Shown: in pieces, positions 7,237 to 61,048 of the stretch
Position numbering within the stretch: position 1 is the stretch's first letter
Layout: each line of letters opens with the position of its first letter
Program-made: the position numbers and the translations under genes
Origin: Patescibacteria group bacterium
GTDB lineage: Bacteria; Patescibacteriota; Patescibacteriia; Magasanikbacterales; GWA2-37-8
DNA length: 64,000 nt
Assembly: GCA_041651015.1 (NCBI GenBank)
Contig: JBAZKA010000003.1
Location: 42,572-106,571, forward strand
Direction of reading: 5' to 3'
The notes under the pieces: generated by a model
Seen by the model: only the letters and a program-made list of their open reading frames with translations
Database searches by the model: none
Told to the model about the DNA's origin: nothing

Positions 7237-7572
7237 TTATTGAGTTAACTTGTCCGCTATTTTTGGAATCAAACATGTAACAAATTGGGCTGAAATGAAA
7301 ACAATTATGGCGGCGACAACCCAGATTATTTTATCTTTAATCGACGACCATGCTAAGGATTTAATTTCTGTTTGTAACGGCACCGAATCTTTTATCGCCG
7401 CACATATCTTGTTATCGAAATTTTTGCCTTCAAACTCCTGCTTAAACACAACGAGGGCGTCCACTTTTTGTGTATACTGCTCTTGGTTAAAATCATTGTC
7501 AGGTCTGGGCATAAGAAAAAAATCAGACTTTTTTCTTTTTGATATTCTCCGAAGGAATAAGTGCGTTGCCAT
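7237..7572 (-). CDS. hypothetical C-terminally membrane-anchored protein (111 aa; start possibly the internal Met near 7512)
   Basis: C-terminal TM 'IIWVVAAIIVFISAQFVTCLI'. Follows the 74-aa ORF. Confidence 0.35.
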   Translation of the reverse strand: MATHLFLRRISKRKKSDFFLMPRPDNDFNQEQYTQKVDALVVFKQEFEGKNFDNKICAAIKDSVPLQTEIKSLAWSSIKDKIIWVVAAIIVFISAQFVTCLIPKIADKLTQ

Positions 7573-7747
7573 TTATACTAATAGGACTGCCGTTGGCTTG
7601 AGATATAACAGAGAGTACAAAACCCAACGCATCTTCATTGCCAATAAGATCATAATCTCGAACTATCTTCTCAAGTGCCTGAACATGGCCATTGTCCATT
7701 TCAATGCTCAATTTTCCTTCACCAACATCATTGATCTTTATAGACAT
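7523..7747 (-). CDS. hypothetical small soluble protein (74 aa)
   Basis: ORF only. Upstream partner of the 7237-7572 gene. Confidence 0.35.
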   Translation of the reverse strand: MSIKINDVGEGKLSIEMDNGHVQALEKIVRDYDLIGNEDALGFVLSVISQANGSPISINGNALIPSENIKKKKV

Positions 7748-7840
7748 AATGGTTTATATTAATGATTCATTTTTAGTATAACATAACCCCGCACAAATGA
7801 CAACAATATTATCACGGATTCTTCAATGCCTCCAAACACG

Positions 7841-7910: not shown

Positions 7911-9272
7911 TTACACCTCCACCGCCTCCTCCGGATCAGCCACGGAAACTCGCACGCCCAATTCACTCTTAATTTTATCGGCTAAAGGCTGGCTTTGCTC
8001 GGGCTCGCCGTGATTCAAGACCACGCATTTGGGCGTTGAACCGTTGTTTTTAATCCAATTAAAAATTTTAATTCTATCCGCGTGCGCCGAGAGCACATCA
8101 ATAAACTCCACATGGCATTTGACTGCCACGTGTTCATTCAAGACGTCCACATGAGTCGCGCCATCCAAAATCTTCCTGCCCGGCGTGTGCATGGCTTGGA
8201 AACCGGTGAGAAATAAAGTATTGCGATTATCAGACAAATAGCGCAACGCGTGATACTGGATGCGTCCGCCGTTCATCATACCCGAACCGGCAATAATAAT
8301 TTTTTGGCCAATGACCGTATTGATGCGCTTGGAATCATCGCGCGAACGGGTCATTTTCAATCCGCCGAATTGGAACAAATCATCACCGGACCGGATATAC
8401 CTTTCCGCTTCTTCATCAAAATATTGCGTGTAGCGGTTAAACACGCCCGTTGCGTTGATGGCGAGCGGGCTGTCCAAAAAAATCGGAATGTTCGGCGGTA
8501 AAACTTGGTCGCGGTCAATCAAATCATTTAAATCATACAAAATTTCCTGGGTGCGTTCCACGGAAAAAGCCGGCATCATCAAAGTACCGCCCCGCTCAAG
8601 CGCCTCGGCCACAACTTTTTTAATGGCAGACTTGCGGTCAATACTCGTGTCGTGTTCGCGGTCGCCATAAGTGGACTCGCAAATCAGCAAATAAACATCT
8701 TTGGGCAAGGCGTCGGTATCGCGTAAAATCGGGACATTCACATTGCCCAGGTCGCCGGAAAAAACAACTTTTTTGCCGGCTAAATTTATTTCCAAAAATG
8801 CCGAGCCGAAAATATGACCGGCTTCATAAAATTTAAACCTGATGTTTGATGCCGGTAAATCAAAATCATCATAATAATCCACTTGGCGCATCATACCGAT
8901 AACCTTGGCCACATCATCTAAATTATACAGAGCCGGCCGGCCAAATTTCCGGGCGTGATATTCCATGATTTCGCATGCATCCTCCAAAATCAATCTGGCG
9001 ATTTCAATAGTCGGCGGGGTGGCATAAATTTGCCCGCTGAATCCGCGCTTTATGAGCAACGGCAAGCGTCCGACATGGTCCAAATGCGCGTGCGTGACAA
9101 ACACAGCCGTGAGAGCGCTGGCGTCAAAAGCAAATGGGTCGGCATTACGGTCTTCCACAAAGTCCCCTCCCTGAAACATCCCGCAATCAACCAAAATTTT
9201 AATATCTCCCTCTTCCAGCAAACTGCACGAACCGGTGACTTCTCCGGCCGCGCCAAAAAATGATAATTTCAT
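7911..9272 (-). CDS. metallo-beta-lactamase / beta-CASP family ribonuclease (RNase J/CPSF-like, COG1236-type)
   Basis: 'FGAAGEVTGSCSLLEEGDIKILVDCGMFQGG' and 'HAHLDHVGRLP' (the HxHxDH MBL motif). About 450 aa with a beta-CASP C-terminus. Confidence 0.7.
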   Translation of the reverse strand: MKLSFFGAAGEVTGSCSLLEEGDIKILVDCGMFQGGDFVEDRNADPFAFDASALTAVFVTHAHLDHVGRLPLLIKRGFSGQIYATPPTIEIARLILEDACEIMEYHARKFGRPALYNLDDVAKVIGMMRQVDYYDDFDLPASNIRFKFYEAGHIFGSAFLEINLAGKKVVFSGDLGNVNVPILRDTDALPKDVYLLICESTYGDREHDTSIDRKSAIKKVVAEALERGGTLMMPAFSVERTQEILYDLNDLIDRDQVLPPNIPIFLDSPLAINATGVFNRYTQYFDEEAERYIRSGDDLFQFGGLKMTRSRDDSKRINTVIGQKIIIAGSGMMNGGRIQYHALRYLSDNRNTLFLTGFQAMHTPGRKILDGATHVDVLNEHVAVKCHVEFIDVLSAHADRIKIFNWIKNNGSTPKCVVLNHGEPEQSQPLADKIKSELGVRVSVADPEEAVEV

Positions 9273-9280
9273 GATATGAC

Positions 9281-9335
9281 GTTAAATAATCCGCTCTTGG
9301 CGAATCGCCCCCAGGGGGCATTTAACAGGTTAAAT
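9281..9335. repeat. Inverted-repeat element GTTAAAT...CGCCCCCAGGGGGC...ATTTAACAGG (family 2); second copy at 41148-41197
   Basis: 'cgcccccagggggcatttaacaggttaa' here versus 'cgcccccaaggggcgatttaacagggttaa' at 41172. Lies in the divergent promoter region between the RNase gene and the 9396 gene. Confidence 0.55.
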
Positions 9336-9395
9336 TATACCACATTTTACCCCCTACACAAATTCATCTATTTCTGATACAATGTCGCTATCATT

Positions 9396-10139
9396 ATGAA
9401 TCAAGAAGAACTGCTTAAAGACGTGGAAATAGTGGAGCCGCCAATGCAAGAGTTCAGAAAACGCGGACACTGGTTTGCCACTGCTTGCTTGTCCGGCTCA
9501 GGCTGTGTTTTGTTATTTATCGCGTCCATTGTCATTGGAATCAAATTTTATATTGGTGCCGGGCCGGCCACTGTCAAAAATCTGCCGACAAACTTCCCGA
9601 CCGATGTGCCGATTTACGACCAATACAACATTGACAAAATTACTTACATTTCCGGACGATATAAAAGCCGTTCTATGGAGATGGCTACTTTCTTTCCCAA
9701 ACTGGTCCTGTCGCCTGTGATTTCGCGCGAACAAAATGCGCCGTCAACCTCGGCCAAAGAAAACGGAAATATATTCAAAGAAGTCTTCCGCATGATCTTG
9801 AAACCAATCGGCGACTCTCGCGATATGATTCAAGTTGAATGGCGCGACATCACCAGCGATGTAAATACCATGATAACTTATTATAAAAGAAATTTAACGA
9901 CTAACGGTTTTACGATTGAATCAGAAACTCAAGGCAACAACTATCGTCAATTAACTTTCAGCCGGCAAGATAATTTGAGCGGGACAATTTTCGCGGAATT
10001 TTCCGACCAAAAAACCAAAAAAGTAACTTACGCGTTTATCATGGTAAATTTGCCCTATCCGGCCGAAGTCGTGAGCACGAACACCCAAACCCTCACCACT
10101 ACAACATCAACCGAACCTGAATCAAATGATACTCTCTAG
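9396..10139 (+). CDS. hypothetical N-terminally membrane-anchored protein with Thr-rich C-terminus (247 aa)
   Basis: TM 'CVLLFIASIVIGIKFYIG'. C-terminal 'TQTLTTTTSTEPESNDT'. Overlaps the murJ start, so probably cotranscribed. Confidence 0.45.
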   Translation: MNQEELLKDVEIVEPPMQEFRKRGHWFATACLSGSGCVLLFIASIVIGIKFYIGAGPATVKNLPTNFPTDVPIYDQYNIDKITYISGRYKSRSMEMATFFPKLVLSPVISREQNAPSTSAKENGNIFKEVFRMILKPIGDSRDMIQVEWRDITSDVNTMITYYKRNLTTNGFTIESETQGNNYRQLTFSRQDNLSGTIFAEFSDQKTKKVTYAFIMVNLPYPAEVVSTNTQTLTTTTSTEPESNDTL

Positions 10140-16969: not shown

Positions 16970-17500
16970 TTAGCTAATAAACGATGAATAAATAGATACG
17001 CAGGCTTTTGCCTCCATATCCGAATGCAATAATTTTAACTCATCCGCCGTATAAGTCAAGTGGATTTTGTCAATAACCCGGCTACATAATTTAGAAATTT
17101 TCGGCCAATAATAACAATTATATAAATAAACAAATACTGAAAATAAATCGGTAATTTTCATCTCGCGCCAAACAGTCGCGACCAAAATTTTATCCGGATT
17201 AGATTTTTTCCAAGCCAGCAAATTTTTAGCCAAGCCGAAAAATGGACAGTGTAAGTGAACAATATCGTAATTACCCAGATCATTAATTAAATCTCCGCCA
17301 TTAATCAGTCCACTAAAATTTAGACCCGGAGCTTTTTGCGAAATTAAATTTTGTTCACGCCGAGTAGCCGCGCCATACTGCAAAGTGTAGGCCTCCGCGT
17401 CAATCCCCATCTCACGTTCGACGTTTACCAAAGCCATCGCTTTATCGCGGATATCGTTAAAATAATCAAAGGCTGATGGAATCAAATGAATAACTTTCAT
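16970..17500 (-). CDS. stand-alone GT4 glycosyltransferase N-terminal half domain (paralog of the N-domain of the 18313-19428 GT4); possible remnant
   Basis: 'MKVIHLIPSAF...NYDIVHLHCPFFGLAKNLLAWKK' parallels 'MKIANLVSTFP...GFDVVHLHYPFYGALGSLIKAKK' in the neighbouring GT4. No C-terminal catalytic (EX7E) half. The track ORF extends upstream to 17575. Confidence 0.5.
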   Translation of the reverse strand: MKVIHLIPSAFDYFNDIRDKAMALVNVEREMGIDAEAYTLQYGAATRREQNLISQKAPGLNFSGLINGGDLINDLGNYDIVHLHCPFFGLAKNLLAWKKSNPDKILVATVWREMKITDLFSVFVYLYNCYYWPKISKLCSRVIDKIHLTYTADELKLLHSDMEAKACVSIYSSFIS

Positions 17501-18303
17501 AATTTTTTGGCGACAATATGAACATTGGGCGACGGCAGCCAAAATAATAATTTTGATTCCAATGTAATCAAACAATTTACAAATTTCTTAAGCTTAGAAA
17601 ATCCGGCCGATGATTCTTGGGCAAAAAATGTTTCGTTGTTGATTTGCCCGCCCGATTTATTGGCCGCACGCCCCATGGCCTTGAACACGGCCACACCGAG
17701 GATTTGGCCGAGGATATTTTCCGCGTAAGTTTCCGACTTGATGCGAAAACCGGAATTGATAAAAATTTTACGCGCCTCCGCGAGCGAGAAAAAATTTACA
17801 TGTCCGGCAAATCTGTTGGTTAAATTATTTTTCCATCCCAATTTGTCCAGCCAACGCCAGAGCGACGTCTTGTCCCCTTCGCACGGCACGAAACCGTACA
17901 TAATTCCTTTTGTTTTCAGGACGCGTTTGATTTCCGCGACAAAATTCTCCGGTTCACTCACGTGTTCCAAAACATCCATAAATATAACAGCATCAAAATT
18001 ATTATCCTCGTAGGGAAAACGTCCGCCATCAAACGCAGTATAACGCACACCATCAACCGCACCCACTGCTGTATTAATTGCTTCTTGACTCAAATCCACG
18101 CCAAAACATTCCCACTCGGGACGGATTTTTTTTATTGCCCGGATAAACGCGCCCGCACCACAGCCGATTTCCAAAATCTTCGCGCCTTCGGGTAATTTCC
18201 TCAAAGATTTCAAACATCGCCCAAGCCGGATGTTCATCGGATCAGACCATTTGAGCGTGGCCGTCCCCCGCCCCCAAATTGATTGTTCGTAATTAAATGA
18301 CAT
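17497..18303 (-). CDS. class I SAM-dependent methyltransferase
   Basis: 'AKILEIGCGAGAFIRAI' (motif I) and 'DAVIFMDVLEHV' (motif II/post-II). Confidence 0.8.
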   Translation of the reverse strand: MSFNYEQSIWGRGTATLKWSDPMNIRLGRCLKSLRKLPEGAKILEIGCGAGAFIRAIKKIRPEWECFGVDLSQEAINTAVGAVDGVRYTAFDGGRFPYEDNNFDAVIFMDVLEHVSEPENFVAEIKRVLKTKGIMYGFVPCEGDKTSLWRWLDKLGWKNNLTNRFAGHVNFFSLAEARKIFINSGFRIKSETYAENILGQILGVAVFKAMGRAANKSGGQINNETFFAQESSAGFSKLKKFVNCLITLESKLLFWLPSPNVHIVAKKL

Positions 18304-22467: not shown

Positions 22468-24384
22468 TTATAATAATTTTGGCAAGACAACTGTTTTTAA
22501 CACCACCCCCTTGCCGGTGGCGACTTTAAATTCACCTCCGGTCAATTGATAGCGTAAAATATCGTATAAACCGTCGTGATTATAATCATCGGCTGTGAAG
22601 CGCGACGACACCGCTGATTTTGGGTATGCTTCTCGGCTGAAAGACCCGGAATCTAAATCCAAAGTGACAAGCGAACTGCCGGCCGAGTCGCCAATGGCCG
22701 CGACTGCTTGTTCACCGCCTCCCCGCCACACTTTCTTGATTATCAACCGCTCCACACTTTTGGCCGGCGATCCAACGACAGTTTGGAGCTTCAGGCCGGT
22801 AAAATCATACTTGTTTAGTGTGAGTTTGCCCGATGCCACACGAGCGCTCCAAAAATTTCCCAGCGAGTCCAAAGAATAATCCCCTATCGCGCCGGAAAAA
22901 GAAAATGAATTTTTGAGCGCGCCGTGCAAATTATAAATCGCCACGCGAGTGGATTTTTTCACGCCATCATAACCGGAGACGACCGCGCGCCACTCGCCGC
23001 CCAAATAAAATAATTTCAACTTATCATAAGTTTTATCCAATTTCCACGAACCGGACAAAATCCCGTTATCGGCATAAACAAAAATTTTGGAACCATTTTT
23101 TGTTTTGGTCAACGCCATGGTATAATCATCCGCCACCCAGTCTGAATCAACAATCTGTTCGCCCGCATTGGCGAGATAAATATTTTTTTCGCCCTCCGCG
23201 TCATAGCAATACAGCTTGGTTGATTTGTAATAACAAATTCTATTTAAATCGCCGGACGCGTGTTCTTCAGTCGCGGCTCGCGCCACCGCCGAAGCCACAT
23301 TCAACCGGCCATAACCCATTTGACCGGCAAATCCTGAATTTTTGGCGTCCACATCATCGGACGATGAAAGTAAAACAGAAATAATATCACGCGCCGTCCA
23401 TTCTGGACGCACGGATTTAACAAGCGCGGCTGTTCCGGCCACCAGCGGAGCGGAAAATGATGTCCCCTGCCAAGGCCCGCTAAAGACATTGTGTCCATTC
23501 TCATAAGACACTCTTTGGATGCTGTAAATATTTTCTCCGGGTGCCGACAAATCCACACAAGTGCCATAATTGGCAAAATCGCTTAGCCTATCCGCGCTAT
23601 CAACCGACGTCACTCCGATCAGCCAATTTTCGCTATCTTCACGATCAAAACATATGGGGTAATTCGGCGACTCATTTTCATCGCCTTTACCAATCACACG
23701 GTTGTTGCCGGCCGCCACCGTCACCATGATACCGCGATCATAAGCGCGACGCAGAGCATAACTCAAATCCTCATCATTGGCATTGCCGACAAAACTAATG
23801 TTTATGATATCCGCCCCATTATCTACCGCATAATTTATCGCTTTGGTGATGGTTTCATAAACACCGGAACCATAATTATCAATCGCCCGAATAGGCATAA
23901 TTTTAATTTTCCAATTAAGTCCGGCGCCAAACACATTATTATTTCCGATGGCGCCAATCAAACCGGCAATGGCCGTGCCGTGTGATAATGTCTCTTCATC
24001 AACTATATTATTATTTGAATCGATCACTTGCGGGTCATTATTATTCTCAATAAAATTCCACCCGCGCACATCGTCAATATAACCGTTTTGATCATCGTCA
24101 ATGCCGTTGTCCGCTATTTCATCGCTATTGGTCCAGATATTTCCCGCCAAATCCGGATGGTTATAATTTACGCCAATATCAATCACCGCCACAACGGTAT
24201 CAGGTGAGCCGGTCGTAGTCTGCCAGGCCTCTGGCGCGTTAATTTGCGCCCACATGGCCTGCTGATATGAATATCCCTGGTCGTTCAGCGCCGCGGCACT
24301 AACCGGAACCGCCAAAAACAAAAACAAGCCTGCCATCAGGCCAAATATTGATTTTTTTGCCAAAATATAATATGATGAGGTCAT
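22468..24384 (-). CDS. secreted subtilisin-like serine peptidase (S8) with C-terminal extension
   Basis: Signal peptide. 'AVIDIGV' (Asp), 'HGTAIAGLIGA' (His), 'GTSFSAPLVAGTAALV' (Ser). Confidence 0.85.
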   Translation of the reverse strand: MTSSYYILAKKSIFGLMAGLFLFLAVPVSAAALNDQGYSYQQAMWAQINAPEAWQTTTGSPDTVVAVIDIGVNYNHPDLAGNIWTNSDEIADNGIDDDQNGYIDDVRGWNFIENNNDPQVIDSNNNIVDEETLSHGTAIAGLIGAIGNNNVFGAGLNWKIKIMPIRAIDNYGSGVYETITKAINYAVDNGADIINISFVGNANDEDLSYALRRAYDRGIMVTVAAGNNRVIGKGDENESPNYPICFDREDSENWLIGVTSVDSADRLSDFANYGTCVDLSAPGENIYSIQRVSYENGHNVFSGPWQGTSFSAPLVAGTAALVKSVRPEWTARDIISVLLSSSDDVDAKNSGFAGQMGYGRLNVASAVARAATEEHASGDLNRICYYKSTKLYCYDAEGEKNIYLANAGEQIVDSDWVADDYTMALTKTKNGSKIFVYADNGILSGSWKLDKTYDKLKLFYLGGEWRAVVSGYDGVKKSTRVAIYNLHGALKNSFSFSGAIGDYSLDSLGNFWSARVASGKLTLNKYDFTGLKLQTVVGSPAKSVERLIIKKVWRGGGEQAVAAIGDSAGSSLVTLDLDSGSFSREAYPKSAVSSRFTADDYNHDGLYDILRYQLTGGEFKVATGKGVVLKTVVLPKLL

Positions 24385-25992: not shown

Positions 25993-26021
25993 ATCATAAT
26001 ATAAAAAGACAGGCGTGTCAA
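25993..26021 (-). promoter_or_regulatory. sigma70-like promoter TTGACA-17-TATGAT for the micropeptide
   Basis: Minus strand: 'TTGACAcgcctgtctttttatatTATGAT'. The -35 sits inside the terminator hairpin at 26010-26032. Confidence 0.45.
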
Positions 26022-26039
26022 TGGCACACCTGCTTTTTT
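26010..26039. terminator. bidirectional hairpin terminator downstream of pyrG
   Basis: 'caggcgtgtcaatggcacacctg' followed by 'ctttttta', with an A/T run on the other side. Confidence 0.6.
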
Positions 26040-26100: not shown

Positions 26101-27729
26101 TTACTTTTTACTCACCGCCGCTTTAATCAAACCCATAAACAACGGATGCGGGGCGAGCGGACGGGATTTTAATTCCGGATGAAATTGCGAACCGACAAAA
26201 AACGGATGGTCTTTGAGTTCAATTATTTCCACCAAATCTGATTCTTTGTTTATACCGACTATTTTCAGGCCGGCCTTATCCAGTTCATCGCGATACTTAT
26301 TATTAAACTCAAAACGATGGCGATGGCGCTCGGAAATTTTATCCGTGCCATATAATTTCTGCACTTTACTCCCCGGTTTCAATTCACAATCATAAGCGCC
26401 CAGGCGCATGGTCCCGCCGTATTTCGCCTCTTGAATATTTTTCGCTTGATTGGGATTGACTTGGATAATAATGTTTGAACTTTTCGGATTGCATTCCACC
26501 GTGTGCGCGTCTCTGTAGCCCAGGACATCGCGCGCGAATTCAATGGCCGCGAGTTGCATGCCATAACACAAGCCAAGATACGGAATTTTATTTTCCCGCG
26601 CGTATTTAATCGCGGATATCACACCTTCCACTCCGCGTGTGCCAAATCCGCCCGGTACGACAATGGCGTCGAACCCGGACAATTCCTTCAATAGTTTGAC
26701 GTCTTTTTCATATTTTTCCGCGTCCACCCAAACCAATTCCGGCGATGCGCCATTATACCAAGAGGCGGTCTTGATGGCTTCAATCACTGAAATATACGAA
26801 TCGGCCAAAGTATAATTGCCGGTGCCAAAATATTTACCAATCACCGCCACTTTAATTTTTTTCTTAGCGGTATTTTTTTTGTTGATAAAGGCCGCCCACT
26901 CTTTGCCGTCTTTTTCTTTCAATTTCAATTTTAATTTCTTGGCGATAACCTTGCTGATATTATATTTTTCAAAATTATCCGGAATATCATAAATGGATTT
27001 CACATCCGGTGCCGGAATAATATCTTCTTTGGATTTAAGCGAACAGAAGAAAGCTAATTTTTCACGGCGCGGTTCATCCAATTCATCCTCTCCGCGAGCA
27101 ATAATAATATCCGCCTGCAAACCGGAATTGTTAAGCGTGCGGGCGGCGAACTGAGTAGGCTTGGTTTTCATCTCGCCCAAATGTCCGGGCACGGGCAAAT
27201 AGCTGACCAAAACAAAAATCACATCATCAGGCGTATCCATCTTCATCATGCGGGCCGCTTCCAGAAATAACACATTTTGATACTCGCCCAATGTACCGCC
27301 GATTTCAATCATCATTACTTGGGCTTTGGTTTTCTTGGCAGCGTTTTTGATCCGACCGATAACTTCCAACGGAATGTGCGGTACCACCTCCACGCAACGG
27401 CCCTTGTAGGCCATGCTTCGTTCCTTTTGGATGACGCTCTGGTAAATGCGTCCGGTGGTCATGTAGTTGATGGAAAAAATATCCGAGTTCAAAAATCTTT
27501 CATAATTTCCAATGTCCTGATCTGTCTCGTCGCCATCATCAGTCACAAATACTTCTCCGTGCTCAATCGGGTTCATGGTGCCGGCATCAACATTTATATA
27601 CGGGTCAATTTTCACGGCCGACGCGTGGATGCCATGATTTTCCAAAATGCGTCCGATTGACGCGACTGTAATCCCCTTGCCCACTCCGCTCATCACCCCC
27701 CCGATCACGAAAATGTATTTCGTCTTCAT
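26101..27729 (-). CDS. pyrG: CTP synthase
   Basis: 'MKTKYIFVIGGVMSGVGKGI', 'GLCYGMQ' (the GATase Cys), and 'HRHRFEFN'. Confidence 0.95.
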   Translation of the reverse strand: MKTKYIFVIGGVMSGVGKGITVASIGRILENHGIHASAVKIDPYINVDAGTMNPIEHGEVFVTDDGDETDQDIGNYERFLNSDIFSINYMTTGRIYQSVIQKERSMAYKGRCVEVVPHIPLEVIGRIKNAAKKTKAQVMMIEIGGTLGEYQNVLFLEAARMMKMDTPDDVIFVLVSYLPVPGHLGEMKTKPTQFAARTLNNSGLQADIIIARGEDELDEPRREKLAFFCSLKSKEDIIPAPDVKSIYDIPDNFEKYNISKVIAKKLKLKLKEKDGKEWAAFINKKNTAKKKIKVAVIGKYFGTGNYTLADSYISVIEAIKTASWYNGASPELVWVDAEKYEKDVKLLKELSGFDAIVVPGGFGTRGVEGVISAIKYARENKIPYLGLCYGMQLAAIEFARDVLGYRDAHTVECNPKSSNIIIQVNPNQAKNIQEAKYGGTMRLGAYDCELKPGSKVQKLYGTDKISERHRHRFEFNNKYRDELDKAGLKIVGINKESDLVEIIELKDHPFFVGSQFHPELKSRPLAPHPLFMGLIKAAVSKK

Positions 27730-27773
27730 AAATTAAATCAGTTTATTGGTTTACTGGTTTATTAGTTTATTTG

Positions 27774-28469
27774 TTAATCAACATATGCCTCAATCTGCGC
27801 GACTTTATTTATTATTTTTAGTTTTTCAGCCAGTTCGGGAAATATCGTTTTTTGTCTTAATCCCATCCATAAATCATCCAATAATGACGACCCCGGGTAT
27901 GGATGCAAATTATAATTTTTGCCTTCAAGACCCAAACCATTAAGAAGAAAGGGCAATTCGTCAATAATGTAGGCGGCTAATCTATCCAATTTATCACGAC
28001 CAAAACCATCCACGCGTTTTTTAAAATTTTCTTTAATTATGTCTAAAATATATTGATGAAATTCAGTATCGTTTTCAAACTCTTCAACAATTACTGAAAT
28101 TGAATCTTTGTAAAATTGCGATTCTTTATAGTCCCGCCATTTTGCTATTTTTATCAAATGTCGTTTTTCTTTCGGCAAACTATTTTTTATTTCATTTATC
28201 ATAACCTCTATCTCCGTGCCTTTTCTTAAGGCCACACTCGCAGCCCTCTCGGCTGAATAACCATCAAACACTTCATAATTAATGGCATGAATTTCATCCG
28301 CAATCAATATCGCCACATCATCTTTGGTTTTGTCTAATGCCCATAAAATATATTTTTCAATATTTTCTTTTGAAAAGTATTTATTCCCCAAACTGATTCC
28401 GACAAAAAAATTGAATTGTCTTGCATCTATTTCGTCTTGCGTGCAGTTAAAATATTTTTCTATCCGCAT
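27774..28469 (-). CDS. tRNA-dependent cyclodipeptide synthase (CDPS) family protein
   Basis: 'FFVGISLGNKYFSKENIEKYILWAL' matches the AlbC-type catalytic-Ser pocket 'IGISAGNSYFSQKN..LLQWA' as recalled from memory. 'EEFENDTEF' resembles 'FEEDAEF'. 'AAYIIDELPF' matches the Y-x3-E catalytic pair in 'NYVLAEAPLF'. Length (231 aa) fits the family. Confidence 0.6.
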   Translation of the reverse strand: MRIEKYFNCTQDEIDARQFNFFVGISLGNKYFSKENIEKYILWALDKTKDDVAILIADEIHAINYEVFDGYSAERAASVALRKGTEIEVMINEIKNSLPKEKRHLIKIAKWRDYKESQFYKDSISVIVEEFENDTEFHQYILDIIKENFKKRVDGFGRDKLDRLAAYIIDELPFLLNGLGLEGKNYNLHPYPGSSLLDDLWMGLRQKTIFPELAEKLKIINKVAQIEAYVD

Positions 28470-28472
28470 ATT

Positions 28473-28925
28473 TCATTTTTTCTCACCAAGTCCGACCACC
28501 ACCAAACTTAATTTTGCTTCCAACCCATGGCGCAATTTGACGCGCGCTTCATATTCACCCGGTTCTTTGATTGGTTTGATAGTAATATTATTTTTGGCTA
28601 CATCAAAACCCATCTTTTTCAAGGCGTCGCTGATTTTCTGAGCGGTGACAGCCGCATACAAAAAACCGGCTTCGTTGGTCTTCTCGGTGATAGTCACCGG
28701 GAGTCCATCTAGCCGGCTGGCAAGCGACTGCTGGGTTCTTAATTCTTCTTCCGAGGCTTTGGCCCGGCGGGCGCGGTCGGTCTTGAGGTCGTTTAACGAC
28801 TTGGGCGACGCGGAAATAGCCAGATGGTTGGGGAACAAAAAATTCGTGGCATAACCATCGGCTACGTTTACTATATCATCAATAGCGCCAAGTCCAGGGA
28901 CTTTGGCGAGGAGGATTACCTGCAT
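28473..28925 (-). CDS. rplI: 50S ribosomal protein L9
   Basis: 'MQVILLAKVPGLG...GYATNFLFP' L9 N-domain. The start is taken at the conserved MQVIL. Confidence 0.85.
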   Translation of the reverse strand: MQVILLAKVPGLGAIDDIVNVADGYATNFLFPNHLAISASPKSLNDLKTDRARRAKASEEELRTQQSLASRLDGLPVTITEKTNEAGFLYAAVTAQKISDALKKMGFDVAKNNITIKPIKEPGEYEARVKLRHGLEAKLSLVVVGLGEKK

Positions 28926-28981
28926 AGACTTGTAATTAGTTCGCACATATTATACAATAAGACCCAAGGAAATTCAAAATA

Positions 28982-37759: not shown

Positions 37760-38827
37760 TTAGTTACCCATCGCCTTCCTCAATTCCGGATCTAAATCGT
37801 CTTCCGCATACTGCTTTGCAATTTTGTCAATAACAATGAATGGCTGCGGACCTTCACAATAAGTGGAAATTTCTGACAACGATACTTCCGCCATTTTTGT
37901 GGGGGATGTTTTTCTTAATTTATTCAATAAATCTTCGCTTACATTATCTTCAGTTAAATATGTAAGTAAACCGTTATTGGCAAGCGCGGCTGCATCACCA
38001 GAGGCAAATAGGCGTTGAAAGATTATGGGTAAGTTATCTGTATCAAAATTATAAATATGAAATACATATGGGGCACAATAGGGGTTGTAAGGATTGTTGT
38101 CGGCGTCGCATTTTTCTTCTTCAAACCAGCCACGCACGGTGGTACTGCCGCTATATATTGGCCCAAAACAATCATCCATTGGGTTACCATGAGTCATTTC
38201 CCAATATTTGTTATCGCCGTTCGTGTTCTTGTCGCTATCTATTACGGGAAACTGCCTAATAGAAACGTAAAGACTGTCCCTGCCAGACATGGCCGATTGG
38301 ATATTTAAATTTATCGGATTATCCACGGTAGCCTTTTTTAGCCCCGATAACACGCTCTCTTGAGATATGAACAATGGATCCCAGCGCAATACAACTTTGC
38401 TAACATTTCCGCCATAAACTTTTATCGGCAATTTATCCAAATCAGACTGATCAATGCCTAAGACGTACGCATTGTCGTAACCGTCCCCCAATTCATTAAC
38501 CCATATTACTTTGATTGACGCATTACCAATATATGAAGAATCTCCGATTTTTTTCCATGTTCCGACAGATTGAAAGGCAGTGCTCGCATCATTTTGTTCA
38601 GGCTCTAATATGCCAGCGTCACTATTGCGAGCATCATACATATTGCTCTGATTCTCTTCAATATTTTCGTCAGCAACGTTGGATGAAGACCGATTAATGT
38701 CCTGTGATTTATTTTTGGCCAACAAAAACCCGAAATAAATCACAACTACTATCACCCCAACAAAAACTACCGCCGCGATAATATGCACGGTCAATAATTT
38801 TTTGTTGTTTTTTAGGATTTCGAACAT
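37760..38827 (-). CDS. hypothetical N-terminally anchored exported protein (355 aa), 32 bp upstream of dnaK
   Basis: TM 'LLTVHIIAAVVFVGVIVVVIYFGFLLA'. Cys-containing, Asn/Asp-rich ectodomain. No motif recognised. Confidence 0.45.
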   Translation of the reverse strand: MFEILKNNKKLLTVHIIAAVVFVGVIVVVIYFGFLLAKNKSQDINRSSSNVADENIEENQSNMYDARNSDAGILEPEQNDASTAFQSVGTWKKIGDSSYIGNASIKVIWVNELGDGYDNAYVLGIDQSDLDKLPIKVYGGNVSKVVLRWDPLFISQESVLSGLKKATVDNPINLNIQSAMSGRDSLYVSIRQFPVIDSDKNTNGDNKYWEMTHGNPMDDCFGPIYSGSTTVRGWFEEEKCDADNNPYNPYCAPYVFHIYNFDTDNLPIIFQRLFASGDAAALANNGLLTYLTEDNVSEDLLNKLRKTSPTKMAEVSLSEISTYCEGPQPFIVIDKIAKQYAEDDLDPELRKAMGN

Positions 38828-39061: not shown

Positions 39062-39532
39062 TTAAATTTTTTTCTTCATTAACATTCTAAAATCTTCAAA
39101 GCCCCACTTTTTATAAATATCGCGGGCAAAATTTGTATGCATGACATTCAAAGAAACATACTTGACGCGGCGCTGTTTGAAATATTTCATTGAACACAAA
39201 AAGAGCGCTTTGGCAATCCCGTTCTTCCGATACTTTTTTTCAACATACAAACTGCGGATAAATCCTTGGCGTGGCATAACTTTCACTCCGTCCTGTTTGC
39301 CGTCATCAATACGAAACTGGACATATCCGGCCAGCACGCCATCCAAAAGGGCGAGATAAAACAAATCCTTTTTATTATTCATCAATTTCTTTAACGCTTT
39401 TTCATCTCTCAACTTTAGAAAATCATAAAAATACTTTTTAACAAAAACTTTTTGACTACTACTAAAATCATTCTCAAAACCGGCGAGTGTCTTCGCGTCT
39501 TTTTTTGTGGCTTTTATGATTTTTACGATCAT
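39062..39532 (-). CDS. GNAT-family N-acetyltransferase
   Basis: 'QFRIDD...IRSLYVEKKYRKNGIAKALF' (the acetyl-CoA-binding motif A). The start is taken at the ATG MIVKIIKA, not the upstream TTG in the track ORF. Confidence 0.75.
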   Translation of the reverse strand: MIVKIIKATKKDAKTLAGFENDFSSSQKVFVKKYFYDFLKLRDEKALKKLMNNKKDLFYLALLDGVLAGYVQFRIDDGKQDGVKVMPRQGFIRSLYVEKKYRKNGIAKALFLCSMKYFKQRRVKYVSLNVMHTNFARDIYKKWGFEDFRMLMKKKI

Positions 39533-39543
39533 ATTATTATCTC

Positions 39544-39572
39544 TTGACAAAACCGACAATCTGTATTATAAT
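39544..39572 (+). promoter_or_regulatory. perfect-consensus sigma70 promoter TTGACA-17-TATAAT (plus strand, orphan)
   Basis: 'TTGACAaaaccgacaatctgtatTATAAT'. Both neighbouring genes are on the minus strand. Confidence 0.6.
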
Positions 39573-39579
39573 TCAATTA

Positions 39580-39640
39580 ATCACGATGAGAGGACTACCA
39601 AAGGGTTTCGTCCCGAGGGAATGCCTCTTTTTTGTTTTAT
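39580..39640 (+). ncRNA. candidate about 55-60 nt sRNA (or 21-aa micro-ORF MRGLPKGFVPRECLFFVLSFF) driven by the 39544 promoter, ending at hairpin + T-run
   Basis: Predicted TSS about 7 nt after the -10. 'gagggaatgcctc' followed by 'ttttttgtttt' at 39615-39640. Confidence 0.35.
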
Positions 39641-40125
39641 CTTTTTTCTAATTTTGTTTTAAATAACTGGATATTTACAATATACTTGCTGAATTTTCGT
39701 AACAACGAGGAATAACGGAAATTTGGCACCACCACTTTTGATAATTTTTCTTTGTCGTTCAGATATTCCAGCAAGCAATGAAAGTCGCCATCGCCACTCA
39801 CAATGAGAGCCTGTTCATAATTCGGAAACTCAATCATCGTATGCAAAACTAATTCCGCATCAACGTTTCCTTTTATCTGAACTTTATTCCCATATTTTAC
39901 CTCCAGTGTTGGCTTGAACACGCAAATATATCCGGCGTCTTGCAGGGATGTATATAATTGCTGGTTACCTGGAACAAAACCAATAAACAGAAACGCTTTG
40001 CTAATGTGATACTTATCTTCAAGAAAAACTCTAAACCTCTTGAAATCCAGCAACCACCCTTGACTTTTTACACCTAAATTAAGATTTTGACTGTCAATGA
40101 ACGCAAAATTATTTGGCCTCGCCAT
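39637..40125 (-). CDS. NYN/LabA-like (DUF88) nuclease-domain protein
   Basis: 'FAFIDSQNL', 'KGNVDAELVLHTM', and 'IVSGDGDFHCLLEYL'. Confidence 0.7.
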   Translation of the reverse strand: MARPNNFAFIDSQNLNLGVKSQGWLLDFKRFRVFLEDKYHISKAFLFIGFVPGNQQLYTSLQDAGYICVFKPTLEVKYGNKVQIKGNVDAELVLHTMIEFPNYEQALIVSGDGDFHCLLEYLNDKEKLSKVVVPNFRYSSLLRKFSKYIVNIQLFKTKLEKR

Positions 40126-51125: not shown

Positions 51126-51276
51126 TAAAAAAACCCGCCCCAGTCGGGCAGATTTTGAGACTTAGAATATTCAAAGTCTACCCACTAGGTCAGGAGGATA
51201 AAAGATACGCCAACAAAGCTAGACCAGGTTTTTATTTGATGATTGTGCATCATAAACACACCATTATTTCTGCCGC

Positions 51277-51360
51277 GGAAGGAGAGGGATTCGAACCCTC
51301 GATACCTTTCGGTATACATGCTTTCCAAGCATGCGCCATCGACCACTAGGCGACCCTTCC
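51277..51360 (-). tRNA. tRNA-Ser (anticodon GGA), type II with long variable arm
   Basis: Minus strand: 'GGAAGGGtcGCCtagtggtcgatGGCgCATGCttGGAaaGCATGtataccgaaaggtatcGAGGGttcgaatCCCTCtccttccG'. Folds as a cloverleaf with a 7-bp acceptor stem, T-loop TTCGAAT, and discriminator G. Confidence 0.85.
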
Positions 51361-59691: not shown

Positions 59692-60305
59692 TCAATTATC
59701 CGGCCGGCGCAACGTTCCATTTTATCCGCCGGACGGAGGAATTTTTTATTTTTCGCGGGATAAATTCGTTTGTGCGGTGCCTCATCAATCGCTTCGGCAA
59801 TGGGATACAAATCCTCTTCGGTGGTAATCCATTTACTACCCAGACGGCGCAAGTCAAAAGGTTTGGCCGAATAACTCACCAAAACTTTTTTACCATTGCT
59901 GTTCAAAAAATATTCATGAAAATATGACAAGGCCAACTCGCGGAAAGTTTTGTGCACCGGGTCGCGGAAACGCAAAACCGCGTGATTAGTCTTGCTGATC
60001 GCGCCCCAGTATCCGTTTCGGCGGTATAGCGTCACCACATGGTCGTCATCCCCGTCGCATTTCAAATCAAAAAGCAGCGGTTTTTCCCCGCGAAGCCACA
60101 AGGCCGTAGCCGCGACCAGAGCGCCTTCCAAACAATGCATCTTGCGCCTTTTTAACGACAGGCGCGGAGACAAATATGTTTCTCCGTTCTTTTCATGATT
60201 CATCGGCATCTTATCCAAAAAATCCTGAATTTTTATCGGAGTGGAAAGTTTTTTTAAAATTTTTATTTCGGTTTTTGTGAGGCCGAACATAACCGGAATT
60301 ATCAT
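59664..60305 (-). CDS. hypothetical protein, possible papain-like/transglutaminase-like Cys-His fold
   Basis: 'HCLEGALVAATALW...DGDDDHVVTLYRRNGYWGAISKTNH'. The assignment is weak. Confidence 0.35.
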   Translation of the reverse strand: MIIPVMFGLTKTEIKILKKLSTPIKIQDFLDKMPMNHEKNGETYLSPRLSLKRRKMHCLEGALVAATALWLRGEKPLLFDLKCDGDDDHVVTLYRRNGYWGAISKTNHAVLRFRDPVHKTFRELALSYFHEYFLNSNGKKVLVSYSAKPFDLRRLGSKWITTEEDLYPIAEAIDEAPHKRIYPAKNKKFLRPADKMERCAGRIIEWKKSNPRT

Positions 60306-61048
60306 TTGGAATTCTCTTTATACTTATTTAAGATATTATAAATAATTTCAATTTTTTCATAATTCAATACATTTTGCGGAAAAGAATCTGCAATTAATTT
60401 TTCTAGCCAATCATAACCAATTACATATACTCCCCTCTTTTTATTCAACCCAAAATGGACAATAGCATTCGGATTTTCAAATACTATCACCGGCCAAACA
60501 TGCAATGTTAATTGCAACTCACTGAGAAGAGTTTCTTCAATTATTTTTTTCTGCGCCCATGCCTGGCGTAAAAAATTCTTTTCCTGGAACCTGCAGCCGT
60601 TACGAGTAAGCTCCTCGTCGTCATAACCAATATTTCCCTCATGGCTCTTAACTTCAATAGACCAAACTCCCGACGGACCAATAACCACAATATCAATATT
60701 TCCTCTGTCACCTATTACTAAATTATCAAGAATTTTATAGCTTCCGGACAGGCCTTTCAGAAGTTGCTTTTTAACATTATCCTCTGATTGCTTGCCAAAT
60801 ATTCTATTACCAATTTGGTATCCGAACTTACTGAACAATAATGCCAGTATGGCAAAACCACCCATCCATGCCAAGGACGACCACCAAAATTTTAGATATT
60901 TATAAAACGGATATTTATAATAGAAATATCCGACGACTATCACTAAAACAAAACATATAATACTCCGTGATAACGATTTCTGATAATACGATAATTTCAT
61001 AGTCAATATTTTACCCCCTCGCCTCAAAATCCTCCAACAAATCACCAA
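60302..61048 (-). CDS. NERD (nuclease-related domain) protein, N-terminally membrane-anchored
   Basis: 'YKILDNLVIGDRGNIDIVVIGPSGVWSIEVKSHEG'. 2 N-terminal TM helices. Confidence 0.65.
   Translation of the reverse strand: MVICWRILRRGGKILTMKLSYYQKSLSRSIICFVLVIVVGYFYYKYPFYKYLKFWWSSLAWMGGFAILALLFSKFGYQIGNRIFGKQSEDNVKKQLLKGLSGSYKILDNLVIGDRGNIDIVVIGPSGVWSIEVKSHEGNIGYDDEELTRNGCRFQEKNFLRQAWAQKKIIEETLLSELQLTLHVWPVIVFENPNAIVHFGLNKKRGVYVIGYDWLEKLIADSFPQNVLNYEKIEIIYNILNKYKENSK

What the first reader, a model, noticed from the sequence alone, without database searches (positions are those of the whole stretch)
27774..28469. Stand-alone tRNA-dependent cyclodipeptide synthase homologue between rplI and pyrG
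The 231-aa protein carries GISLGNKYFSKEN...ILWA, which matches the catalytic-Ser pocket of AlbC-type CDPSs. It also has a FEEDAEF-like motif and the Y-x3-E catalytic pair (AAYIIDELPF). CDPSs hijack aminoacyl-tRNAs to make cyclodipeptides and usually sit next to tailoring enzymes (oxidases, P450s, methyltransferases). Here it is wedged among housekeeping genes with no tailoring partner. If this is a reduced, probably host-associated bacterium (inference), a cyclodipeptide signal or antibiotic would be notable.
Basis: partly seen in the sequence, partly recalled or inferred. Interest (0 to 1): 0.7.

Follow-up and report, generated by a model that had tools for sequence, protein, structure and literature searches.

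The report
Horizontally acquired cyclodipeptide synthase gene
This is an intact tRNA-dependent cyclodipeptide synthase in an ultra-small Patescibacteria (CPR) bacterium, inserted by horizontal transfer between a ribosomal-protein gene and the CTP synthase gene; the enzyme type is well known and already annotated, but what it makes is unknown.

Summary

The closest solved relative is ParcuCDPS, the cyclo(His-Pro) synthase. The three residues that select His there (Y55, E174, Y189) are L55, F174 and H189 here. The P1 pocket (FGLAWFLH) resembles Phe/Tyr-accepting enzymes. The P2 pocket (IENKGSL) matches no characterised enzyme.

The gene is the lowest-GC gene in the window (33% against 44%). Nine related genomes, one with pyrG 92% identical, have rplI directly next to pyrG and no CDPS. 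The gene is therefore a lineage-specific insertion, probably co-transcribed with rplI and pyrG. No tailoring partner was found in the annotated central ~34 kb, and none of the clade's usual partners has a homologue anywhere in the 64 kb.

The identical protein is already annotated in NCBI, and CPR CDPSs were catalogued in 2018. Verdict: a new member of a known kind, of moderate interest.

The parts
27774..28469 (-). CDPS gene (231 aa), XYP subfamily, ParcuCDPS-like clade. Catalytic S26, D58, Y167, E171, Y191; P192. P1 pocket FGLAWFLH (F22, G24, L55, A57, W111, F174, L175, H189). P2 pocket IENKGSL (I144, E147, N148, K151, G193, S195, L196).
28473..28946 (-). rplI (ribosomal protein L9). Its stop codon lies 3 nt before the CDPS ATG.
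26101..27729 (-). pyrG (CTP synthase), starting 44 nt after the CDPS stop.
28949..28977 (-). Promoter-like site TTGAAT-17-TATAAT (10 of 12 matches) just upstream of rplI. Candidate promoter for an rplI-CDPS-pyrG transcript. This is a consensus match only.
26009..26033 (-). Terminator-like hairpin (9 pairs) followed by a T-run, downstream of pyrG. No such site lies between rplI, the CDPS gene and pyrG. This is a consensus match only.
27730..27773 (-). 44-nt CDPS-pyrG spacer. It contains four tandem octamers on the minus strand (AAATAAAC TAATAAAC CAGTAAAC CAATAAAC). The pyrG-proximal ~12 nt (GATTTAATTT before the ATG) resemble the sequence just before the pyrG ATG in relatives L041 and L042.
28482..28487 (-). 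GGTGAG within the last codons of rplI, 12 nt upstream of the CDPS ATG. A weak Shine-Dalgarno-like element; the spacing is longer than optimal.
   Evidence: sequence read directly

Best explanation
The gene encodes a functional tRNA-dependent cyclodipeptide synthase. It belongs to the XYP subfamily and to the clade typified by ParcuCDPS from Parcubacteria bacterium RAAC4_OD1_1.

Mechanism (inferred from the family, with residues shown here): a first aminoacyl-tRNA delivers its aminoacyl group to Ser26, which is polarised by Asp58. The side chain sits in pocket P1. A second aminoacyl-tRNA, with its side chain in pocket P2, gives a dipeptidyl-enzyme. With Y167, E171 and Y191 this cyclises to a 2,5-diketopiperazine.

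Product: P1 here is hydrophobic and aromatic (FGLAWFLH) and lacks the Tyr/Glu/Tyr triad that selects histidine in ParcuCDPS. The first residue is therefore most likely Phe, Tyr or Leu and not His (inferred). The second residue cannot be predicted.

Origin and expression: the gene is a horizontally acquired, low-GC insertion into the native rplI-pyrG junction of a Patescibacteria genome. It is probably expressed as part of that housekeeping transcript. With no tailoring enzyme nearby, the plain cyclodipeptide is probably the final product. Its role as a signal, antagonist or host-interaction molecule is speculative.
For: Family membership:
- Pfam and NCBIfam scores are above the curated cutoffs.
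- PDB sequence hits to ParcuCDPS are at 1e-30 over residues 3-215.
- The model has pLDDT 96.5 and pTM 0.90.
- Foldseek TM is 0.83-0.86 to 7QAX/7QB8 and the top 50 are all CDPSs.

Residues:
- AlbC S37, N40, Y178, E182, Y202 and H203 map to S26, N29, Y167, E171, Y191 and P192.
- S26, D58, Y167, E171, Y191 and P192 are invariant in the 43-sequence alignment. The catalytic string is intact in every full-length homologue among the 89.
- The role of D58 is shown for ParcuCDPS in PMC7613923.

Pockets:
- The register reproduces the published motifs of ParcuCDPS (GAYAWELY/FEWKYTR) and of the uncultured archaeon AQS34941.1 (FGLVWILH/IENNGSL).
- The His-selecting Y55, E174 and Y189 are L55, F174 and H189 here.
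- Engineered Y55V+E174L and E174L+Y189L ParcuCDPS variants switch to Leu or Phe.
- Characterised enzymes with similar P1 are CDPS 91 (FGLAWSLL; cFF/cFY), CDPS 17 (FGLAWVIC; cHF) and CDPS 22 (LIITWIIH; cY-X/cF-X).

Insertion:
- Gene GC is 33.0% and GC3 29.7%, against 44.3% and 47.9% for 50 window genes (z -2.9 and -3.4). It is the lowest-GC gene in the window.
- Nine related loci keep rplI directly next to pyrG without a CDPS. They include L040, with pyrG 92% and era 86% identical.

Operon: there is a 3-nt gap after rplI, a promoter-like site only upstream of rplI, and a terminator-like site only after pyrG.

No partner.
Against: - No activity data exist for this protein or for any member of its FGLAW-x-x-H / IEN-x-GS-x subgroup.
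- In the published table, the only tested enzymes with a similar P2 motif (CDPS 92 and 46) were inactive in E. coli. ParcuCDPS itself gave low titres.
- Pocket-motif prediction is acknowledged by its authors to be unreliable outside well-sampled groups.
- My own alignment to AlbC puts pocket positions 65 and 67 one residue off the published register. The L55/A57 assignment therefore rests on the ParcuCDPS register.
- Only one sequence variant of this gene exists, so purifying selection in this lineage could not be tested.
- The promoter and terminator calls are consensus matches only.
- Only the central ~34 kb of the window was annotated for domains, and the rest of the 186-kb contig and genome was not examined for tailoring or export genes.
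Confidence: 0.82

Rival explanations
1. It is an orthologue in function of ParcuCDPS, making cyclo(His-Pro) and cyclo(His-Glu).
For: ParcuCDPS is the closest solved and characterised relative. Both proteins come from Patescibacteria. Two P2 positions (E147, K151) are shared.
Against: All three residues shown by mutagenesis to be needed for His use (Y55, E174, Y189) are replaced by L, F and H. E174A and E174H alone abolish His use, and hydrophobic double mutants switch to Leu or Phe. Only 3 of 8 P1 positions and 2 of 7 P2 positions are identical. Structure-based alignments give about 26-28% identity.
Confidence: 0.06
2. It is a recently acquired passenger gene that is intact but makes no product of use to this organism. 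It may be poorly matched to the host's tRNAs, or on its way to being lost.
For: GC and GC3 are anomalous. The gene is absent from all nine syntenic relatives. The two tested enzymes with the most similar P2 motif were inactive in E. coli. No partner genes are present.
Against: The reading frame is full length and every catalytic and clade-invariant residue is intact. The gene sits 3 nt after rplI inside a housekeeping gene string, where a useless drain on aminoacyl-tRNA should be selected against in a small genome (inference). The same arrangement was recovered in two assemblies.
Confidence: 0.09
3. It is a CDPS-fold protein used for something other than releasing a cyclodipeptide. Examples would be transfer of an aminoacyl group to another acceptor, or depletion of a charged tRNA in a conflict or defence setting.
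For: The clade behaves like a mobile gene. Its GC is lower than the host flank in 36 of 36 loci, and archaeal and bacterial hosts are interleaved in the tree. One relative (L005) lies beside GP88/SSB/HerA-type genes.
Against: There is no match to any PADLOC defence model or PHROG family. The cyclisation residues Y167, E171 and Y191 are invariant. The only characterised clade member makes cyclodipeptides.
Confidence: 0.03

Closest known systems
ParcuCDPS (CDPS 90; Parcubacteria bacterium RAAC4_OD1_1; PDB 7QB8 and its mutant series), a cyclo(His-Pro)/cyclo(His-Glu) synthase
   Different: The His-selecting triad Y55/E174/Y189 is L55/F174/H189 here. P1 is FGLAWFLH against GAYAWELY, and P2 is IENKGSL against FEWKYTR. 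The product is therefore expected to differ.
CDPS 91 (Methylovulum miyakonense; cFF/cFY), CDPS 17 (Parabacteroides; cHF) and CDPS 22 (Diplorickettsia; cY-X/cF-X): characterised XYP enzymes
   Same: Their P1 motifs FGLAWSLL and FGLAWVIC share five or six of eight positions with FGLAWFLH. CDPS 22 (LIITWIIH) shares the Trp and the His at AlbC position 200.
   Different: Their P2 motifs are unrelated (LNYSTYA, QERRIPL, LKYKGKN). I did not measure their overall relatedness to the query. The resemblance is a lead for P1 specificity, not a test.
AlbC (Streptomyces noursei; PDB 3OQV), the founding CDPS of the NYH subfamily
   Different: AlbC has H203, and the query has P192 there (XYP, not NYH). Only 45 identical positions in the alignment. 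AlbC sits in a cluster with the AlbA/AlbB cyclodipeptide oxidase; this gene has no such partner.
Uncharacterised CPR/archaeal CDPSs listed in Gondry et al. 2018, Supplemental Data Set 4 (for example uncultured archaeon AQS34941.1, FGLVWILH/IENNGSL)
   Same: Same pocket type (FGL[AV]W-x-L-H / IEN-x-GS-L) and same clade. P0028 is 52% identical to the query.
   Different: None has a known product. This copy is in a bacterium and is inserted between rplI and pyrG.

Membership tests
Cyclodipeptide synthase family (PF16715 / TIGR04539) | Sequence scores above the curated family cutoffs | tested here: met
   PF16715 64.9 bits (cutoff 27). TIGR04539 92 bits (cutoff 45).
Cyclodipeptide synthase family (PF16715 / TIGR04539) | Single Rossmann-like domain resembling the catalytic domain of class Ic aminoacyl-tRNA synthetases (TyrRS/TrpRS) | tested here: met
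Cyclodipeptide synthase family (PF16715 / TIGR04539) | Catalytic serine (AlbC S37) that forms the aminoacyl-enzyme | tested here: met
   S26 aligns with AlbC S37 and ParcuCDPS S26. It is invariant in all 89 homologues.
Cyclodipeptide synthase family (PF16715 / TIGR04539) | Catalytic Tyr178, Glu182 and Tyr202 (AlbC numbering) | tested here: met
   Y167, E171 and Y191. They are invariant in the clade.
Cyclodipeptide synthase family (PF16715 / TIGR04539) | Lacks the ATP-binding HIGH and KMSKS motifs of class I aminoacyl-tRNA synthetases | tested here: met
   Neither motif occurs in the 231-aa sequence, read directly.
Cyclodipeptide synthase family (PF16715 / TIGR04539) | Uses two aminoacyl-tRNAs to release a cyclodipeptide | not testable with these tools
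   Needs expression and LC-MS or an in vitro assay.
XYP subfamily of CDPSs | X40, Y202, P203 (AlbC numbering) in place of N40, Y202, H203 | tested here: met
   N29, Y191, P192. The Pro at position 203 decides the subfamily. ParcuCDPS has the same residues and is classed as XYP.
ParcuCDPS-like clade | Asp58 within reach of the catalytic Ser (Ser/Asp pair), and Gly84 in helix alpha-3 | tested here: met
   D58 is invariant and G84 is at least 90% conserved. Roles are described in PMC7613923.
Histidine-using CDPS (ParcuCDPS specificity group) | P1 triad Y55/E174/Y189 that binds the imidazole | tested here: not met
   L55/F174/H189. The protein is not filed as a cyclo(His-X) synthase.
CDPS biosynthetic gene cluster with tailoring enzymes | Adjacent cyclodipeptide oxidase, P450, 2OG oxygenase, methyltransferase, prenyltransferase or similar | tested here: not met
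   The neighbours are pyrG, rplI, era, S41 protease, murA-like, S8 protease and sugar-transfer genes. The GNAT, SET and S51 partners of relatives have no homologue in the window. This does not define a CDPS; it defines a tailored pathway.

The most novel reading that the evidence does not exclude
This CDPS belongs to a mobile, low-GC gene family that moves repeatedly between ultra-small CPR bacteria and DPANN archaea. It supplies these episymbionts with an untailored diketopiperazine used in dealing with their hosts or competitors. In this genome it has been wired into a ribosomal-protein/CTP-synthase transcript, so that output follows growth. The FGLAW-x-x-H / IEN-x-GS-x pocket type would specify a cyclodipeptide not yet assigned to any CDPS.
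Probability: 0.2. Interest if true: 0.6.

Novelty: new member of a known kind. Interest (0 to 1): 0.35.

Why it matters
Cyclodipeptide synthases divert charged tRNAs from translation to make bioactive diketopiperazines. Patescibacteria have tiny genomes and very little secondary metabolism, so any small-molecule gene they keep is a clue to how they interact with hosts.

This copy adds three things. First, it is a clear case of recent gain, with an empty site in a 92%-identical relative. Second, it is placed inside a housekeeping gene string. Third, its pocket type is shared by about 30 uncharacterised CPR/DPANN enzymes and differs from the one characterised relative.

Expressing one member would assign a product to the whole subgroup. 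It would also test the His-selection rules derived from ParcuCDPS engineering. It does not change what is known about the enzyme family.

Tried and rejected
- Defence or phage origin: no PADLOC match and no meaningful PHROG match.
- Hidden partner genes: the GNAT, SET-domain and peptidase S51 proteins found next to relatives were searched against the whole window by tblastn. Nothing scored better than E = 0.1.
- The window's own GNAT (39062-39559) is 10.6 kb away and not detectably related to the CDPS-linked GNATs.
- The methyltransferase at 17497-18303 lies in a glycosyltransferase cluster about 10 kb away. I do not count it as a partner.
- RNA elements: Rfam and ARAGORN found only tRNA-Ser(GGA) at 51275-51360.
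- Assembly chimera: rejected, because two public contigs match exactly across both junctions.
- Recent donor: the best DNA identity of the gene to any fetched homologue is about 66%, so no donor can be named.
- Insertion scar: no direct repeats or CDPS remnant at the empty site in L040. The rplI C-terminus varies in all relatives, so it gives no boundary. A first alignment attempt failed on coordinates.
- AlbC-based register for pocket positions 65 and 67 gave I54/I56. I used the published ParcuCDPS register (Y55/A57) instead, because it reproduces two published motifs.
- Literature: no paper in the searchable library links CDPSs with DPANN/CPR beyond ParcuCDPS, or with SET domains in prokaryotes.

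Full report
**1. Observation**

The ORF at 27774..28469 on the minus strand is real: ATG start, TAA stop, 231 aa. GISLGNKYFSKENIEKYILWA is residues 24-44, FENDTEF is 131-137, and AAYIIDELPF is 165-174. The upstream gene (28473..28946, minus) has both ribosomal protein L9 domains. The downstream gene (26101..27729, minus) is CTP synthase. At 33% GC, a 231-codon open frame has a chance probability of about 2e-8 (my arithmetic). Two public contigs from different assembly pipelines are exact substrings of the window across era-rplI-CDPS-pyrG.

**2. What it is**

The protein scores 64.9 bits on Pfam PF16715 (cutoff 27) and 92 bits on NCBIfam TIGR04539 (cutoff 45). Against PDB sequences, the best matches are the seven entries of the Parcubacteria bacterium RAAC4_OD1_1 cyclodipeptide synthase (CDPS) series, at E about 1e-30 over residues 3-215. 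Weaker matches go to the P. gingivalis, S. haemolyticus, B. thermoamylovorans, AlbC, Rv2275 and YvmC CDPSs.

**3. Catalytic residues and subfamily**

I verified the AlbC sequence against PDB 3OQV and aligned it with the clade. The mapping is below.

| AlbC residue | Query residue |
|---|---|
| S37 | S26 |
| N40 | N29 |
| Y178 | Y167 |
| E182 | E171 |
| Y202 | Y191 |
| H203 | P192 |

The Pro at the last position puts the protein in the XYP subfamily, as for ParcuCDPS. S26, D58, Y167, E171, Y191 and P192 are invariant in the 43-sequence alignment. The catalytic string is intact in every full-length homologue among the 89. In ParcuCDPS, D58 hydrogen-bonds the catalytic serine, and D58A and D58N lose more than 90% of activity.

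**4. Substrate pockets**

I used the pocket positions of Jacques and Gondry. My register reproduces the published ParcuCDPS motifs exactly (P1 GAYAWELY, P2 FEWKYTR). It also reproduces those of an uncultured archaeon entry (FGLVWILH/IENNGSL). The query reads P1 FGLAWFLH and P2 IENKGSL.

The three P1 residues shown by mutagenesis to select histidine in ParcuCDPS are Y55, E174 and Y189. Here they are L55, F174 and H189. In ParcuCDPS, E174A and E174H abolish His use. The hydrophobic double mutants Y55V+E174L and E174L+Y189L switch the enzyme to Leu or Phe. Characterised XYP enzymes with similar P1 motifs all place an aromatic residue in their products:

| Enzyme | P1 motif | Products |
|---|---|---|
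| CDPS 91 | FGLAWSLL | cFF, cFY |
| CDPS 17 | FGLAWVIC | cHF |
| CDPS 22 | LIITWIIH | cY-X, cF-X |

I infer an aromatic or large hydrophobic first residue, and not His.

P2 has no characterised counterpart. The nearest motifs (IKNSGIG, INNTGIA) belong to two enzymes that were inactive in E. coli. About 30 of the closest homologues share FGLAW-[IVLF]-[ILM]-H / IEN-x-GS-x. This is a coherent but uncharacterised specificity group. One caveat applies: my direct alignment to AlbC shifts positions 65 and 67 by one residue. The L55/A57 assignment therefore rests on the ParcuCDPS register.

**5. Context and origin**

The exact protein is already in NCBI as 'MAG: tRNA-dependent cyclodipeptide synthase [Patescibacteria group bacterium]'. 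The next-best homologue is only 59% identical.

The gene is the lowest-GC gene of 50 in the window. Its GC is 33.0% and GC3 29.7%, against means of 44.3% and 47.9% (z -2.9 and -3.4).

I fetched 80 pyrG relatives with their flanks. In nine of them rplI lies directly upstream of pyrG, with a spacer from -4 to 244 nt and no CDPS. In the closest four, era and the S41 protease gene (and murA in three) also keep their positions. The nearest, L040, has pyrG 92% and era 86% identical, and a roughly 33-nt rplI-pyrG spacer with no trace of a CDPS. The most economical reading is a lineage-specific insertion of the CDPS into the rplI-pyrG spacer.

No close donor is in the data. The best DNA identity to any homologue is about 66%.

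**6. Expression (inferred)**

The CDPS ATG lies 3 nt after the rplI stop, and pyrG starts 44 nt after the CDPS stop. The consensus scan finds a promoter-like site only upstream of rplI (28977..28949). It finds a terminator-like hairpin only after pyrG (26033..26009). This fits a single rplI-CDPS-pyrG transcript, but these are pattern matches and not evidence of function.

**7. Is it stand-alone?**

Within about 10 kb on either side, the genes are:
- a PD-(D/E)XK nuclease
- glycosyltransferases
- an epimerase
- an S8 protease
- a sugar transferase
- pyrG, rplI and era
- an S41 protease
- a murA-like gene
- a PEGA-domain protein
- an RNase H-like protein
- dnaJ and dnaK

. No cyclodipeptide oxidase, P450, 2OG oxygenase or adjacent methyltransferase is present.

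Across 37 loci of relatives, three neighbour families recur next to the CDPS:
- A GNAT acetyltransferase, in 5 clustered loci plus L007.
- A SET-domain protein, in 4 loci. P0045 is a SET-CDPS fusion.
- Peptidase S51, in a cluster of 3 loci, of which one member (L020) was confirmed by Pfam.

None has a homologue in the window. A published survey also found N-acetyltransferases to be the commonest domain near CDPSs. In this genome the plain cyclodipeptide is therefore probably the end product (inference).

**8. Distribution of the clade**

In GTDB species genomes, 30 loci matched a clade-specific peptide pattern:
- 14 are DPANN or unclassified archaea: Woesearchaeota, Nanoarchaeota, Pacearchaeota and two labelled only 'archaeon'.
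- 10 are Patescibacteria: Saccharibacteria, Andersenbacteria, Campbellbacteria, Parcubacteria and others.
- 6 are other or unclassified bacteria.

In a neighbour-joining tree, archaeal and bacterial hosts are interleaved. The query branches at the base of a subclade made mostly of Woesearchaeota plus one Patescibacteria single-cell genome. That tree has no support values. In 36 of 36 loci the CDPS gene has lower GC than its flanks. This pattern suggests repeated transfer, but it needs a proper phylogenetic test. The 2018 survey already listed uncharacterised CPR and archaeal CDPSs beside ParcuCDPS. I found no paper in the searchable library that discusses the CPR/DPANN pattern itself.

**9. 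Verdict**

This is a genuine, intact XYP-type CDPS that was horizontally acquired and sits in a housekeeping gene string without tailoring partners. It is a new member of a known kind. The enzyme class, its occurrence in CPR bacteria and this protein's annotation are all already on record. What is new is local and modest: the clean insertion site, the likely co-transcription with rplI and pyrG, and a pocket type that predicts a product different from the one characterised relative. Interest is 0.35.

Noticed in passing
L009:3813-4250, L010:2889-3272, L016:2664-3140, L023:6982-7377 and 9066-9584; protein P0045: SET-domain proteins (PF00856) lie next to or near the CDPS in four loci of relatives (Woesearchaeota and Saccharibacteria). 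One database protein (P0045, 374 aa) is a SET-CDPS fusion. No paper in the searchable library links prokaryotic SET domains with CDPSs. This is a possible new tailoring or functional partner.
   Followed up: partly
L006:6726-7172, L014:8681-9235, L015:8721-9149, L019:7564-8004, L024:8744-9199, L007:6717-7160: A small GNAT acetyltransferase sits directly beside the CDPS in six loci of the wider clade, archaeal and bacterial. This fits the published note that N-acetyltransferases are the commonest domain near CDPSs.
   Followed up: partly
L020:8987-9616, L026:4797-5453, L027:8677-9363: Homologous ~210-230 aa proteins lie just downstream of the CDPS in three loci. The L020 member is a peptidase S51 (dipeptidase E / cyanophycinase family) by Pfam. 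The other two were grouped with it by BLAST clustering only.
   Followed up: partly
L005:7000-7746 and L024:14458-15189: Two loci carry a second, divergent CDPS paralogue: tandem in L005, and about 6 kb away in L024. The L005 locus also has GP88, SSB and HerA-type genes, which hints at a mobile element.
   Followed up: no
L001-L036 (all CDPS loci): In 36 of 36 loci the CDPS gene has lower GC than its flanks (difference -0.003 to -0.197). The extreme is Halomonas salifodinae, at 42% against 62%.
   Followed up: partly
L004:4513-5886 and 7446-7784; L002:5071-5961: In one archaeal locus the CDPS lies directly after a class I aminoacyl-tRNA synthetase-like gene and near a tRNA_bind-domain gene. 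In another, an EamA-family transporter gene ends 40 nt upstream of the CDPS.
   Followed up: no
window 27730-27773: The CDPS-pyrG spacer holds four tandem octamers on the minus strand (AAATAAAC TAATAAAC CAGTAAAC CAATAAAC). Their origin (native or brought in with the insert) and any function are unknown.
   Followed up: no
window 39062-40125 and 60302-61048: These are other low-GC genes: a GNAT (34.9%), a NYN-domain protein (36.0%) and a 248-aa ORF (34.4%), against a gene mean of 44.3%. They are possible further horizontally acquired genes.
   Followed up: no
L041:3914-4000, L042:3914-4000, L043:3757-4000: In these three relatives the rplI-pyrG spacer carries a terminator-like hairpin with a T-run, followed by a TATAAT-like box. 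In L040 and several others the two genes are nearly contiguous. Transcriptional linkage of rplI and pyrG therefore varies within the lineage.
   Followed up: no
window 22468-24384: The S8 subtilase (638 aa) has its protease domain in residues 62-359. The C-terminal ~280 residues have no Pfam match.
   Followed up: no
window 37760-38827, 9396-10139, 16970-17575: Three ORFs of 355, 247 and 201 aa have no Pfam match at E <= 0.001.
   Followed up: no
protein P0061: A 405-aa database protein fuses a PF10688 (Imp-YgjV) membrane domain to a CDPS domain. This is a second fusion architecture in the clade.
   Followed up: no
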